From a virus: a stretch of 64,000 bases of DNA. The stretch lies in the IMG/VR virus record IMGVR_UViG_3300028534_000015, positions 3 through 64,002 of that record; one strand, 5' to 3'. Made by a program: the position numbers and the translations under genes. Positions 1 to 27,616 of the stretch are shown here, piece after piece. Numbering within the stretch: the first letter of the stretch is position 1; each line of letters starts with the position of its first letter. The notes under the pieces are model-generated. The model was not told where the DNA came from, did no database searches, and saw only the letters and a program-made list of their open reading frames with translations.

Positions 1-17
1 CTTTCTTAGTTAAATAT

Positions 18-125
18 GTGTATTTACCTATGAAAATAAATACACTGAATTATAAGTTCTTTTTTATTAAGAACGCCTTAGTTTAAACCATATTAATAAT
101 ATGTAAATAAAAAAAAGAGATATCC
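18..125 (-). promoter_or_regulatory. Early promoter plus hairpin leader cassette, copy A (drives a gene left of the window)
   Basis: Minus strand GATATC-polyT-TTATTTACATATTAT followed by GTTCTT..AAGAAC and GTGTATTTA-TTTTCATAGG-TAAATACAC hairpins; near-identical to copies at about 20.0, 21.7, 23.2 and 27.5 kb. Confidence 0.75.
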
Positions 126-153
126 TGTTAAGGAACCTGTAGGTTCCTTAACA
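126..153 (-). terminator. Intrinsic terminator hairpin after nrdA
   Basis: tgttaaggaacct/aggttccttaaca 13-bp inverted repeat abutting the stop codon, with a U-run shortly downstream on the minus strand. Confidence 0.8.
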
Positions 154-15547: not shown

Positions 15548-15575
15548 CACTTGGATAGCCACGGCTATCCAAGTG
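15548..15575 (-). terminator. Terminator hairpin at end of 15565..16530
   Basis: cacttggatagcc/ggctatccaagtg 13-bp stem. Confidence 0.7.
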
Positions 15576-16530
15576 ATGCAGGTAATGTATATGCAAATGA
15601 CTGTGCTTCTGATCTTGTGGCGTCATATTTTCCATATTGAATAAATGTCCTATATGTCCATTCATCTGTCGATAGATTTGATTTAACTCTAACTTGTATC
15701 ATTCCGTTAGAGTCATATGTCGCTTCTGTATCGTGATATTCTGTATCATCTACGCCATAAACTATTTCGCCGTCTTTAAAAATTTCTATTCTACCAGACG
15801 TAGCATTGTCAGGGATAGTTATCACAACATGAACTTCGTCATCATCATTCCACGTTCCTGTTTTGTTTCCGTCACTATCCGTTTCTTTAGGTACAAAGAA
15901 TGTTGAATGCGATTTAGGAACATAAATAATTTCCGAACTAAAAAGTGTGTTGTCATCATTGGCAAAATGAAACATAGCAGAAACTATAAATGTTTCGTTT
16001 TGTGGTAAAAATACATCTATAAAAATTTCATAAAGGTTATCTGTATCTTCTTTCGATAAGAAATAAACTTTATCCTCAATAAGAGACCTAATCATCCAAG
16101 TTGTTGCTACTAATCCTATAAGTTCAGACTCTCCAACGTTTTCGATTCCAATTTTGAAACATGTGTTAGGTATTTCTTCGTTTGGAAAATCAAAAAATAT
16201 TTTAGGAGGTTGCCTAAGCGCAGGGGGTTCATCAAATGGTTCATAGTTATTATCATCAATGACGGTATCGATACTTGTATTTGTATATGTGAACAAACCA
16301 CGCTTATCTGTGATAATAGCTGCTCTTCCGTAATATGTCTCTCCTACAGTTACTGCTTTGTTGAAAATATGTGTGAACGAAACAAATGGAATTACATCTG
16401 TGGTAACGTAAATGTCTTCAAAATTTTCATCTTTAGCTACCTCAAAAATAATTGATACAATATTTTCATCATCATGTAAAACGATATCCTCTTCTGGAAC
16501 ATTAAGTATCAGCACAATTAAACTCCTCAA
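15565..16530 (-). CDS. Virion protein with Ig/FN3-like folds
   Basis: IIFEVAKDENF..TYYGRA and TWMIR..ETFIVSAMFHF FN3-like strands; upstream start likely GTG/TTG within the ORF. Confidence 0.5.
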   Translation of the reverse strand: MRSLIVLILNVPEEDIVLHDDENIVSIIFEVAKDENFEDIYVTTDVIPFVSFTHIFNKAVTVGETYYGRAAIITDKRGLFTYTNTSIDTVIDDNNYEPFDEPPALRQPPKIFFDFPNEEIPNTCFKIGIENVGESELIGLVATTWMIRSLIEDKVYFLSKEDTDNLYEIFIDVFLPQNETFIVSAMFHFANDDNTLFSSEIIYVPKSHSTFFVPKETDSDGNKTGTWNDDDEVHVVITIPDNATSGRIEIFKDGEIVYGVDDTEYHDTEATYDSNGMIQVRVKSNLSTDEWTYRTFIQYGKYDATRSEAQSFAYTLPASLG

Positions 16531-17011: not shown

Positions 17012-17140
17012 TCATTCTAAAAGCTTTTTATATTTTTTTGTTTTTTCCTTCTCACCACTAATTGTTAGATTAAAATACTTCATTGGAATATACTTGATGT
17101 CAAAAAATATATTTTTATCAAATTCAACTATTTCTTGCAT
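17012..17140 (-). CDS. Small ORF (42 aa, MQEIVEFDKNIFF...), not in supplied track
   Basis: AGGAG SD 5 nt before ATG at 17140; in-frame TGA at 17012-17014. Confidence 0.45.
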   Translation of the reverse strand: MQEIVEFDKNIFFDIKYIPMKYFNLTISGEKEKTKKYKKLLE

Positions 17141-17158
17141 TTAAACTCCTTTCTATAT

Positions 17159-17451
17159 ACGCGCGTAACACGCGCACCCCCGCGTCGCGTACTAAAGGAA
17201 AATTATATTAATAAATTAATATAATATTTTAATATATTATAATTATTATTAAATAATATAAATTATATATAATATTAATTAAAGAAAAGAAAGAGATAGA
17301 AGGGGTATATATATACTACGTATATATATACCCCTTCTATCTCCAAAGAAAAGAAAGAAAAAAATAAAAAAATTTATTTTTTTCTATTATTTGAGTTGAT
17401 TGTGAATTTTCTTCCCTCGCGCGCACGCGCTCGCACGTGTGTTACGCGCGT
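17159..17451. other. Origin-like non-coding element: GC-rich inverted repeats enclosing an AT tract and a 24-bp-arm hairpin
   Basis: acgcgcgtaacac (17159-17171)/gtgttacgcgcgt (17439-17451); near-pure AT at about 17190-17285; gagatagaaggggtatatatatac (17293-17316)-tac-gtatatatataccccttctatctc (17320-17343). Confidence 0.5.
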
Positions 17452-17929
17452 CTTATAGTAAGCGAAGTTTTGAAAGTTTGAAAAATGACGAAATCTAACC
17501 TGTGGGAAATTCACTAGGATAACTTCTGTCAAGAAGCATGTGTAAAAACGTTTAGGATGTTGAAAAGTGATTTTGATTTGTTTTTGACATATGACAGAAA
17601 ACGCAGATCCAACAAGTGATAGTTTTTCTCACAGGTTAGATTAGATCATAAAACGGATCGAGAAATTCACTTTTAAATTTTTGAGAGAGAAATAGTGAAA
17701 AAATGAGCATGGTTTAAAATCGTCTATTTGGCTATGAAGTATTCCAGGTATGTATTTGTACTTAAAATTTGTTTTAGGGTGTTTTTAGAGCATTCTAGAA
17801 GGGATACAGGTAATTTTTTGATTGGTGTGTGAAATAAGATAGAGATTCAGATATCTGAAGTGGTTTGAAATATGATTTCTTATGGTGCTAAAAATATGAT
17901 TTAAATTTTTTTTTACAAAAAAGTATTTT

Positions 17930-18525
17930 ATATGACGTAAATAGTTTTATATAAATTTCATACCATCTACTCCGATCAAAGGTATTAGATTTAAAGTTTC
18001 TATTTACGTCCGTCATGCGTTTGTACTACTTATACATGACGGATATTTAAAAAACTTTTAATATTTACCGATGCGTTACGGTAGTACTTGAAAATTATGT
18101 ATCGTGACGTACTTGGTCATTATTTTGAGATATATATGTAAATCCATATTTTTTTGATTGTCTTGTGCGATCCTAAACTCTCTTTGTCTTTTGCTTACAG
18201 TCTTTTGGTTTTATATATCTCAACTAGAGCTATCCGTTCTCTGTACTAAACTTGCTGTTAAAAACATAGTATATTTACTTATACTGTTATTAGTGGCGGT
18301 TTAGTATAATAGCTCATAAACACGTCAGACCTACGATACCTGTACGTGAACAATCTATTCCAATGCTACACTATTTTTTGAAGCCATCCTCCTTTCTTGA
18401 CGATACGCGTGCTTTACACATGTCAAACGTGTGGTGTATGAGATTTTGTGTGGAATCTCATAATTGGTTAGACATAAGTGATCCTTTACTCTTAGTAGTG
18501 TCCATTTAGGACACTACTAAGAAGT
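17930..18525 (+). ncRNA. Candidate large structured non-coding RNA (family not recognised)
   Basis: No ORF of 60 aa or more; many nested stems (see findings); G-U wobbles in the 3' part favour the + strand. Confidence 0.35.
18491..18521. terminator. Strong hairpin closing the non-coding region
   Basis: cttagtagtgtcc/ggacactactaag 13-bp stem. Confidence 0.6.
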
Positions 18526-20009: not shown

Positions 20010-20116
20010 AATATCTCCTTTTTATGTATTCTGAATTATAAGTTCTTTTTTTTTTATTAAGAACACCTTAGCTTAAACTAATAAAATAATATATAAACAA
20101 AAAAAAAAGAGATATC
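20010..20116 (-). promoter_or_regulatory. Early promoter plus leader cassette, copy B
   Basis: TTGTTTATATATTAT (20086-20100), AGTTTAAGCTAAGGTGTTCTT..AAGAACTTATAATTCAG, AAGGAG SD. Confidence 0.75.
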
Positions 20117-23195: not shown

Positions 23196-23319
23196 AGTTT
23201 CTCCTTTATGTATTTTAAACTCTATAACCTATGAAATTATAGAGTAATATAAGTTCTTTTATAGAACACCTAACTGTTAACTGCTTTAATAATATACAAA
23301 TAAAAAAAAATCCGATATC
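23196..23319 (-). promoter_or_regulatory. Early promoter plus leader cassette, copy D
   Basis: TTATTTGTATATTAT (23289-23303), GTTCT-ATAAA-AGAAC and ACTCTATAA-TTTCATAGG-TTATAGAGT hairpins, AAGGAG SD. Confidence 0.7.
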
Positions 23320-27512: not shown

Positions 27513-27616
27513 ATAATATCTCCTTTTTATGAATTCTAAATTATAAGTTCTTTTTTATTAAGAACGTCTTAGTTTAAACTATTAAAATAATATATAAACA
27601 AAAAAAAAGAGATATC
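27513..27616 (-). promoter_or_regulatory. Early promoter plus leader cassette, copy C
   Basis: TTGTTTATATATTAT (27587-27601), AGTTTAAACTAAGACGTTCTT..AAGAACTTATAATT, AAGGAG SD. Confidence 0.75.

What the first reader, a model, noticed from the sequence alone, without database searches (positions are those of the whole stretch)
17156..17451. Nested origin-like DNA element: CG-rich inverted repeats, pure-AT tract and 24-bp perfect cruciform
Seen: a 13-bp inverted repeat (17159-17171/17439-17451) brackets about 95 bp of almost pure A/T, a 24-bp-arm palindrome with a 3-nt loop (17293-17343), and direct repeats aaagaaaagaaag on each side of it (17281-17293, 17345-17357). The ends are alternating purine-pyrimidine CG runs (cgcgcgcacgcgc, cgcacgtgtgt), very unusual in this AT-rich DNA and potentially Z-DNA forming. 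Inference: replication origin (unwinding element plus initiator sites), packaging/terminus signal, or an anchor attaching the genome to the nuclear shell. As far as I know, origins of chimalliviruses are poorly defined.
Basis: partly seen in the sequence, partly recalled or inferred. Interest (0 to 1): 0.65.

Follow-up and report, generated by a model that had tools for sequence, protein, structure and literature searches.

The report
Conserved palindrome/AT-tract control module, giant phage
The repeats are real and form a single-copy non-coding module shared by four lineages of uncultured giant nucleus-forming phages; it most likely ends one transcription unit and starts the tail-fibre genes, and it is also the best candidate on this contig for a replication origin, though nothing yet shows that.

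Summary
An independent assembly reproduces the region base for base. The core consists of a conserved box, a T-rich run, a perfect 24-27-bp-arm palindrome, a second T-rich run, an 85-92-bp G/C-free tract and a promoter-like box. This core recurs at the same position, upstream of a conserved tail-like gene, in three other metagenomic phage lineages. The palindrome sequences differ but each stays perfect. The G/C-free tract is the least stable duplex on the contig. The CG-rich "13-bp inverted repeat" is not part of the conserved core. It is the best-kept piece of an inverted duplication of a ~65-nt GC-hairpin unit; one relative has that unit once and two have none. In more distant relatives the same slot holds an ordinary terminator hairpin followed by the same T/C-rich run, and in the close relatives outward-facing early-type promoters flank the palindrome. 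My best reading is an enlarged terminator-promoter boundary module at the head of the tail-fibre operon (0.45). A replication origin remains a live rival or second role (0.3) and is untested. Mobile element, invertible switch, telomere-resolution site, packaging site and artefact were each tested and found weak. The scan earlier noted origin-like AT elements flanked by CG tracts on other phage DNA; I did not find such an element near the helicase of an SPN3US-type phage.

The parts
17133..17196 (-). Left GC-hairpin unit, read outward on the minus strand. It holds the CG box (17159-17190), the 13-bp repeat core (17159-17171), a TATATAG motif, and the Shine-Dalgarno AAAGGAG (17146-17152) of the 42-aa ORF.
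   Evidence: Homologous to the right unit (67% over 78 columns) and to the L016 unit (65%). It folds into a nested GC hairpin.
17189..17202 (-). Box B: TTTTCCTTTAGTAC on the minus strand, a promoter-like box at the gene-side end of the AT tract.
   Evidence: Conserved as TTCCTATAGTAG (twice each in L009 and L010) and CTATAGTAG (L015). It is unique to the element in each genome. It resembles the TATATAGT upstream motif.
17199..17283 (.). G/C-free tract of 85 bp, rich in TpA steps (31%), with no homopolymer longer than 4.
   Evidence: It is the longest such tract and the least stable duplex on the contig. L009 has 90 bp and L010 has 92 bp at the same place.
17281..17293 (+). Polypurine repeat AAAGAAAAGAAAG, which reads as a T/C-rich run on the minus strand directly after the palindrome.
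   Evidence: The equivalent T/C-rich run follows the hairpin in L009, L010, L016, L015 and L018.
17293..17343 (.). Perfect palindrome with 24-bp arms, a 3-nt loop and a (TA)n centre.
   Evidence: RNA fold -38.7 kcal/mol, z = -10.9. Perfect palindromes with different sequences occur in L016 (24+3), L009 (25+0) and L010 (26+0).
17345..17357 (+). Second copy of AAAGAAAAGAAAG, a T/C-rich run on the minus strand before the palindrome.
17356..17385 (.). A/T-only hairpin with a 13-bp stem and 4-nt loop.
17384..17398 (-). Box A: CAACTCAAATAATAG on the minus strand. Its reverse complement, preceded by a T-run, resembles an early promoter facing right.
   Evidence: Identical at 15 of 15 positions in L009 and L010, and unique in each genome. 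Repeated three times in L009 and twice in L010, and as a related box (ACTAAATAGAS) twice in L016, about 80-85 bp apart. Promoter-matrix score of the reverse complement: 18.0 in L010 (top hit of that locus), 8.3 in L009, 4.9 here.
17408..17476 (+). Right GC-hairpin unit, read outward on the plus strand. It holds the CG box (17414-17451), the 13-bp repeat core (17439-17451), and CTTATAGTAAGCGAAGTTTTGAAAG.
   Evidence: 73% identical over 81 columns to the single L016 unit, which faces that phage's gene.
17012..17140 (-). 42-aa ORF with a strong Shine-Dalgarno, the first gene downstream of the module.
   Evidence: It has no homolog in the relatives, where the leader runs straight to the FN3 gene.
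15565..16530 (-). Conserved 321-aa gene (three tandem FN3/Ig-like domains, tail-like) that anchors the synteny.
   Evidence: The AlphaFold model has pLDDT 88, and Foldseek matches FN3 arrays and phage minor tail or fibre proteins.

Best explanation
The element is a single-copy boundary control module between the early/replication region and a late tail-fibre operon. Read on the gene-sense (minus) strand, it runs in this order: a small upstream hairpin slot, box A, a T-rich run, a very long perfect hairpin followed by a T/C-rich run, a long A/T-only promoter region ending in box B, a GC-rich leader hairpin, and then the ribosome-binding site of the first gene. The hairpin with its T/C run stops or processes RNA arriving from upstream. 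The A/T region and box B start transcription of the tail genes. Box A read on the other strand is an outward-facing promoter, strong in the relatives and degenerate here. The CG-rich 'inverted repeat' is an inverted duplication of the GC leader-hairpin unit, one copy behind each outward-facing promoter-like site, and is specific to this lineage. What is shown: the anatomy, its conservation, its single-copy status on the DNA in hand, the homology of the CG units, and promoter-matrix scores. What is inferred: termination, promoter activity and leader function.
For: The module lies upstream of the same gene in four lineages: this phage, L009/L014, L010 and L016. In more distant relatives the same slot holds an ordinary 8-16-bp hairpin followed by nearly the same T/C-rich run. 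This phage's routine punctuation is hairpin, T-run, early promoter, leader hairpin, SD, present in 13 copies, and the module follows the same order. With this phage's own early-promoter matrix, the two best sites in the 14-kb L010 locus flank the palindrome and face outward, scoring 18.0 and 16.0 against 13.9-29.2 for true sites. Box B resembles TATATAGT, a motif strongly enriched upstream of genes, with 5 of its 8 copies intergenic. The CG unit of L016 faces its gene, and all three CG units fold into similar GC hairpins. The downstream gene is a tail-like structural protein followed by large fibre-like proteins. The terminator scan calls the palindrome on the minus strand.
Against: A 24-27-bp stem and an 85-92-bp G/C-free tract far exceed what this phage's other terminators and promoters use. 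Such cassettes are normally multi-copy, but this one is unique. In L009 and L010 no co-oriented gene lies upstream for the hairpin to terminate, and here and in L016 the upstream gene already has its own terminator 0.5-1 kb away. In this phage none of the element's promoter-like sites reaches canonical scores. No transcript data exist.
Confidence: 0.45

Rival explanations
1. The element is a replication origin, alone or in addition to the boundary role. The G/C-free, TpA-rich tract would be the DNA-unwinding element and the (TA)n-centred palindrome would extrude as a cruciform. Outward transcription from the flanking promoters would supply negative supercoiling or an R-loop primer, as at T4 oriF/oriG and the T7 primary origin. 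Box A repeats would be initiator sites, and the GC units would clamp the melted zone.
For: There is one copy in the 156 kb in hand, and the tract is the least stable duplex on the contig (z = 5.5). The length of the G/C-free tract is conserved at 85, 90 and 92 bp while its sequence drifts. The palindrome stays perfect through complete sequence turnover. Box A-like repeats occur one to three times, about 80-85 bp apart in one orientation. In L009 and L010 the module sits between divergent transcription units and is flanked by outward promoters. It lies 2.5-4.5 kb from the helicase in the relatives, and 6-10 kb from the DNA polymerase and helicase here. The phage encodes a type II topoisomerase. 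The 21-nt CG motif recurs in L006 just past a primase/helicase gene and in L007 beside iteron-like repeats.
Against: No initiator gene is adjacent; the neighbour is a tail-like FN3 protein. This phage has only one box A. The CG boxes are absent from L009 and L010. Cumulative GC skew is monotonic, although gene orientation dominates it. Genes to the right of the element point toward it. Distant relatives and an SPN3US-type phage have nothing comparable at the locus. The perfection of the stem is not special, because ordinary hairpins here carry only 4.8% G.T pairs.
Confidence: 0.3
2. The element acts at the RNA level. The 24-bp perfect duplex would be an RNase III-type processing site or a stability element. 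The long-range pairing of the two GC units would hide the ribosome-binding site of the 42-aa ORF in read-through transcripts, while transcripts started inside the module would be translatable, as described for T4 lysozyme (own knowledge).
For: The minus-strand RNA folds at -123 kcal/mol (z = -13), and the outer helix pairs through the Shine-Dalgarno. The duplex is longer than 20 bp.
Against: The long-range pairing exists only in this lineage. The DNA strand gives an equally extreme z of -12.4, so the signal merely reflects the repeats. The local leader fold is not significant (z = -1.9). Read-through past the palindrome is unproven.
Confidence: 0.1
3. The element is a mobile or rearranging DNA element: a MITE-like insertion bounded by terminal inverted repeats, an invertible promoter switch, or recombination-prone regulatory cassettes marking shuffling junctions.
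For: The element has perfect 13-bp terminal inverted repeats. Homology with L009 and L010 ends exactly at both GC units, and about 8 kb of extra genes lie beyond the right unit. The right unit matches the gene-side unit of L016, which implies a past inverted duplication or rearrangement.
Against: There is no second copy with these repeats in IMG/VR or in 185,579 prokaryotic species genomes. I saw no target-site duplication. The interior is the ancestral conserved module, not foreign DNA. The contig has no resolvase, integrase or protelomerase. Both assemblies show the same orientation.
Confidence: 0.07
4. The element is a packaging (pac) site or another DNA-level landmark, such as an attachment point inside the phage nucleus.
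For: The element is single-copy, conserved and structurally extreme.
Against: The large terminase gene is 82 kb away. Related giant phages are reported to package by headful without a defined signal (PMC12390700).
Confidence: 0.05

Closest known systems
Terminator/early-promoter/stem-loop regulatory cassettes of large lytic phages: this phage's own 13-copy early cassette, and PeSL cassettes of T4-type phages (own knowledge)
   Same: The order of parts is the same: hairpin, T-rich run, AT-rich promoter core, leader hairpin, SD. Both sit at borders between gene modules, and both mark breakpoints of gene order between relatives.
   Different: This module is single-copy. Its stem is 24-27 bp against 12-16 bp. 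Its G/C-free tract is 85-92 bp where the cassettes have a T9 run. Its leader hairpin is GC-rich. It has promoter-like sites facing both ways, and here they do not reach canonical early-promoter scores.
Promoter-plus-unwinding-element origins: T4 oriF/oriG and the T7 primary origin (own knowledge)
   Same: A phage-type promoter lies next to an easily melted AT-rich tract, and no dedicated initiator gene is needed nearby. In L009 and L010 a promoter-like box (B1) is followed by a 90-bp G/C-free tract.
   Different: No R-loop or initiation data exist. A long perfect palindrome and GC clamps are not part of those origins. The promoter motifs in this phage are weak.
Lambda ori and iteron-type theta origins (own knowledge)
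   Same: Directly repeated boxes, an AT-rich tract and a palindrome lie within about 300 bp.
   Different: This phage has only one box. No initiator gene lies over or beside the element. The order of parts differs.
Invertible promoter segments such as fimS and Hin/Gin-type switches (own knowledge)
   Same: Inverted repeats bracket a segment of about 270 bp that carries promoter-like sites.
   Different: No recombinase was found in 156 kb. Only one orientation was seen. The repeats are diverged copies of a 65-nt unit rather than short crossover sites.

Membership tests
Phage terminator-promoter regulatory cassette | A stable hairpin followed by a T-rich run on the coding strand | tested here: met
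   The 24-bp stem is followed by TTTCTTTTCTTT on the minus strand. The same run follows the hairpins of the relatives.
Phage terminator-promoter regulatory cassette | A canonical early-promoter core (TTTAYATATTATT) downstream of the T-run | tested here: inconclusive
   With the full-length matrix the element's best score is 15.9, against 21 or more for the training sites. The relatives score 16-18 with the shorter T-run-plus-core matrix, whose true sites score 13.9-29.2.
Phage terminator-promoter regulatory cassette | A leader hairpin and then a Shine-Dalgarno before the first gene | tested here: met
   The left GC unit folds into a hairpin and is followed by AAAGGAG and ATG.
Phage terminator-promoter regulatory cassette | Multiple copies per genome | tested here: not met
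   Boxes A and B, the palindrome and the GC unit each occur only at this locus in the 156 kb in hand.
Replication origin with an unwinding element | An AT-rich tract of lowest duplex stability | tested here: met
   Global minimum of the contig, z = 5.5.
Replication origin with an unwinding element | Repeated initiator-binding sites (iterons) | tested here: inconclusive
   Box A occurs once here, three times in L009 and twice in L010; a related box occurs twice in L016. The copies could also be promoter duplicates.
Replication origin with an unwinding element | An initiator or replication gene in cis | tested here: not met
   The flanking genes have no known family, and the conserved neighbour is a tail-like FN3 protein. 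The helicase and polymerase lie 6-10 kb away.
Replication origin with an unwinding element | A strand-composition switch or mapped initiation | tested here: inconclusive
   There is no GC-skew turning point, but skew follows gene orientation and the contig may be partial.
MITE / transposon remnant | Terminal inverted repeats with a target-site duplication | tested here: not met
   The repeats are present, but the flanks (CTATAT / CTTATAG) show no duplication.
MITE / transposon remnant | Further copies in the same or other genomes | tested here: not met
   No hits for the repeat pair at similar spacing in IMG/VR or GTDB species genomes.
Invertible promoter switch | A site-specific recombinase encoded nearby | tested here: not met
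   PF00239 and PF00589 are absent from the contig. The genome may be incomplete.
Invertible promoter switch | Both orientations present in the population | tested here: inconclusive
   Two assemblies show the same orientation. Reads were not available.
Protelomerase target (telRL type) | A long perfect palindrome together with a protelomerase gene | tested here: not met
   The palindrome is present, but PF16684 is absent.
pac site | Location in or beside the terminase genes | tested here: not met
   The large terminase gene is at contig 98,890-100,998.

The most novel reading that the evidence does not exclude
The module is the replication origin of a clade of AT-rich nucleus-forming giant phages. 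In this reading, flanking outward transcription melts a roughly 90-bp G/C-free tract and extrudes a perfect cruciform, and in this lineage duplicated GC hairpin or Z-DNA-prone units clamp the melted zone. It would be the first sequence-defined origin candidate for a chimallivirus lineage with comparative support.
Probability: 0.3. Interest if true: 0.75.

Novelty: new variant of a known kind. Interest (0 to 1): 0.5.

Why it matters
No replication origin or packaging signal has been defined for phiKZ-like nucleus-forming phages. In the papers I could read, origin predictors gave only low-reliability calls for giant phages (PMC12390700), and middle and late promoters are said to escape bioinformatic prediction (PMC7598289). 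This module is a compact, comparatively supported cis element with clear parts that can be cloned and tested for termination, promoter activity, unwinding, cruciform extrusion and replication. Even on the ordinary reading, it shows how a routine terminator-promoter junction can be enlarged into a unique structure, and how a GC leader-hairpin unit was duplicated in inverted orientation at the breakpoints of gene order.

Tried and rejected
1. Alternative genetic codes for the 1.4-kb gap: all three stop codons are frequent in all six frames.
2. Rfam: only sub-threshold microRNA-type matches to the hairpin. No tRNAs were found.
3. Close relatives by single-protein scans of IMG/VR with three proteins, and by blastn against GenBank phages: none found.
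4. The flanking 297-aa protein is a singleton among 5.8 billion proteins.
5. The idea that the 1-kb stretch to the right of the element is a decayed inverted copy of the FN3 gene: no tblastn or HMM signal.
6. The CG box against plasmids: only chance-level matches inside genes.
7. The two-part GC-unit pattern: only L006 in IMG/VR, and three hits in 596 Gb of prokaryotic genomes, about what chance gives.
8. The earlier scan note on SPN3US-type phages: no AT-rich or palindromic element within 20 kb either side of the helicase of Salmonella phage SPFM22. I did not scan the rest of that genome.
9. The FN3 family has no tblastn match in GenBank phages using P0006.
10. G.U content as a test of RNA versus DNA constraint: not discriminating, because all hairpins here are nearly pure Watson-Crick.
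11. GC skew is uninformative.
12. Literature searches found no described origin or comparable element for these phages.

Full report
**Observation.** The window is bases 3-64002 of a 156,170-bp IMG/VR contig.
- A 13-bp perfect inverted repeat lies at 17159-17171 and 17439-17451.
- A palindrome with 24-bp perfect arms and a 3-nt loop lies at 17293-17343.
- AAAGAAAAGAAAG occurs on each side of the palindrome.
- The A/T tract is strictly G/C-free for 85 bp. The next longest G/C-free run on the contig is 32 bp.
- Ten of the contig's 79 CGCG tetramers fall in the element.
- None of 5000 shuffles of the two CG boxes reproduces a 13-bp repeat.
- The palindrome is the outlier among 53 perfect hairpins; the others have 11-16-bp stems, mostly with tetraloops.
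- The A/T tract is the least stable duplex on the contig, at z = 5.5.
- A second assembly from a Logan run is identical over 6453 bp with the same orientation, so this is not an assembly artefact.

**The phage.** The contig encodes split RNAP beta-type subunits, a protein with a weak match to the nuclear-shell family, tail sheath, major head protein, large terminase, topoisomerase II, and a DNA polymerase about 30% identical to those of cultured phiKZ-like phages. It is a deeply divergent chimallivirus-like phage at 32% GC.

**Setting.** The element sits at the left edge of the largest non-coding island on the contig (17141-18561). No genetic code opens a frame there. All flanking genes are on the minus strand.

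**Relatives.** The left-flank 321-aa gene has a 42%-identical homolog on an ENA contig, L009. Upstream of that homolog lies a strikingly similar module. Read on the gene-sense strand, it contains:
- the box TCAACTCAAATAATA, identical at 15 of 15 positions;
- a T-rich run;
- a perfect palindrome with 25-bp arms and a different sequence;
- a second T-rich run;
- G/C-free tracts of 50 and 90 bp;
- the box TTCCTATAGTAG, present twice. This phage has TTTTCCTTTAGTAC.

A pattern built from this architecture found a second assembly of the L009 type (L014) and a third variant (L010, 26-bp arms) in JGI metagenomes, along with three chance hits. A profile of the flanking protein found 148 family members. 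The next-closest long contig, L016, again carries the module, with a 24-bp perfect palindrome and a 3-nt loop. The four palindromes have different sequences but each is perfect. Both boxes are unique to the element in each genome. More distant relatives (L017-L021) lack the island.

**The CG-rich inverted repeat.** This repeat is not part of the conserved core. L009 and L010 have no CG box. L016 has one, on the gene side, followed by TTTATAGTAAGAGAATTTTGAAAATTG. That tail matches the outward flank of this phage's right box (blastn 76% over 59 nt, E = 3e-6). Aligned, the left unit, the right unit and the L016 unit are homologous over about 65 nt at 65-73% identity, and each folds into a nested GC hairpin. 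The 13-bp repeat is therefore the best-kept core of an inverted duplication of a GC-hairpin unit. Homology with L009 and L010 ends exactly at the two units. In this phage about 8 kb lies between the module and the counterpart of the relatives' divergent gene block: the 1-kb non-coding stretch, six genes with early cassettes, and the DNA polymerase.

**Transcription signals.** This phage punctuates its genes with a 13-copy cassette: hairpin, GATATC, T9, TTTAYATATTATT, N5, AGTTTAAAC, leader hairpin, SD. The core fits the published description of virion-RNAP early promoters as AT-rich motifs of about 10 nt near -10 (PMC7598289). The module follows the same order of parts.

A weight matrix from the true sites gives only moderate scores inside this phage's element. 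In L010, however, the two best sites of the whole 14-kb locus are the reverse of box A (18.0) and the site before the second box B (16.0). Both face outward from the palindrome. In L009 and L010 the genes on the box A side are indeed divergent. TATATAGT is a second motif enriched upstream of genes, and box B and the TATAG(T)A after each GC unit resemble it.

In distant relatives the slot before this gene holds an ordinary hairpin followed by nearly the same T/C-rich run. The downstream gene folds as three tandem FN3/Ig-like domains (pLDDT 88). Its structural neighbours are phage minor-tail and fibre proteins, and large fibre-like genes follow it. Together these results support a boundary module that ends upstream transcription and starts a tail-fibre operon.

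**What the boundary reading does not explain.**
- The stem and the G/C-free tract are far larger than this phage's other signals.
- The tract length is conserved at 85, 90 and 92 bp.
- The module is single-copy.
- In L009 and L010 there is nothing upstream on that strand to terminate.
- Box A-like repeats occur one to three times, about 80-85 bp apart.

These features fit an origin made of an unwinding element, a cruciform and transcriptional activation. So does the position near the helicase and polymerase genes.

**Against an origin.**
- No initiator gene is adjacent.
- The CG boxes are not conserved.
- This phage has one box A.
- There is no skew turning point, although skew here follows gene orientation.
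- An SPN3US-type cultured phage has nothing comparable near its helicase.
- The perfection of the stem is not informative, because G.T pairs are rare in all hairpins of this phage.

**Other readings tested.**
- Mobile element: no second copy in IMG/VR or in 185,579 species genomes, no target duplication, and the interior is the ancestral module.
- Invertible switch or telomere-resolution site: no resolvase, integrase or protelomerase on the contig, and only one orientation seen.
- Packaging site: the terminase gene is 82 kb away.
- RNA-level occlusion of the ribosome-binding site by the long-range helix: possible, but the pairing is specific to this lineage and the DNA strand scores equally.

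**Unexplained.** The 21-mer GCGCGTGTTACGCGCGTRTAT recurs in two unrelated GC-rich phage contigs. In L006 it lies just past a primase/helicase gene, inside nested inverted repeats. In L007 it lies beside iteron-like repeats. A looser two-part pattern gave only chance-level hits elsewhere.

**Verdict.** I rate an enlarged terminator-promoter boundary module at 0.45 and a replication origin, possibly as a second role, at 0.3. It is a new variant of a known kind. The value of the finding is a well-delimited, comparatively supported cis element that makes the origin question testable for this clade.

Noticed in passing
contig ends (window 1-131 and contig 156,038-156,170): The last ~133 nt of the contig repeat its first ~133 nt with one mismatch (a copy of the early cassette). 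This is either a repeat-induced assembly break or circular closure, so CheckV's 58% completeness may be an underestimate.
   Followed up: partly
window 17452-18490: About 1 kb has no ORF longer than 52 aa in any frame or code, and it is not a decayed copy of the neighbouring gene. It contains GAAATTCACT twice (17506, 17662) and a 25-nt inverted repeat (17485-17509/17625-17649). If box A's reverse strand is a promoter, this stretch would be its transcript.
   Followed up: partly
window-wide, for example 18-125, 20010-20116, 23196-23319, 27513-27616, 49048, 59814: An early-expression cassette occurs in 13 minus-strand copies: hairpin, GATATC, T9, TTTAYATATTATT, N5, AGTTTAAAC, leader hairpin, SD. 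I built a usable weight matrix from it.
   Followed up: yes
window 2532, 2537, 4594, 39638, 52974 and contig 85,820: TATATAGT is strongly enriched upstream of genes. Five of its eight copies are intergenic, and the gene-proximal ones lie mostly 35-61 nt before starts. It may be a second promoter class.
   Followed up: partly
window 15565-16530 (-): The 321-aa protein is three tandem FN3/Ig-like domains (pLDDT 88) and belongs to a family with at least 148 representatives. In distant relatives it follows a ResIII helicase and precedes fibre-like giants, so it is probably a tail protein.
   Followed up: yes
L006:2531-2569 and L007:2880-2900: Two unrelated GC-rich phage contigs share 21-24 nt of the CG box. 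In L006 it lies about 120 bp past a primase/helicase gene at the centre of nested inverted repeats. In L007 it lies beside iteron-like repeats. I cannot decide between chance and a shared motif.
   Followed up: partly
contig 85,545-85,965, 86,479-87,098 and 69,680-70,094: These are further non-coding islands with GC-rich hairpins and structured-looking stretches. They are the only other gaps longer than 400 bp on the contig.
   Followed up: no
L015:480-640: The relative L015 has a GC-richer, hairpin-dense segment of about 140 nt between its AT-rich region and the CTATAGTAG box. It may be a structured leader RNA.
   Followed up: no
L028:21339-21669 (Salmonella phage SPFM22): The annotated 331-bp gap after the helicase looks coding and ends in a hairpin. 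It is probably an unannotated ORF.
   Followed up: no
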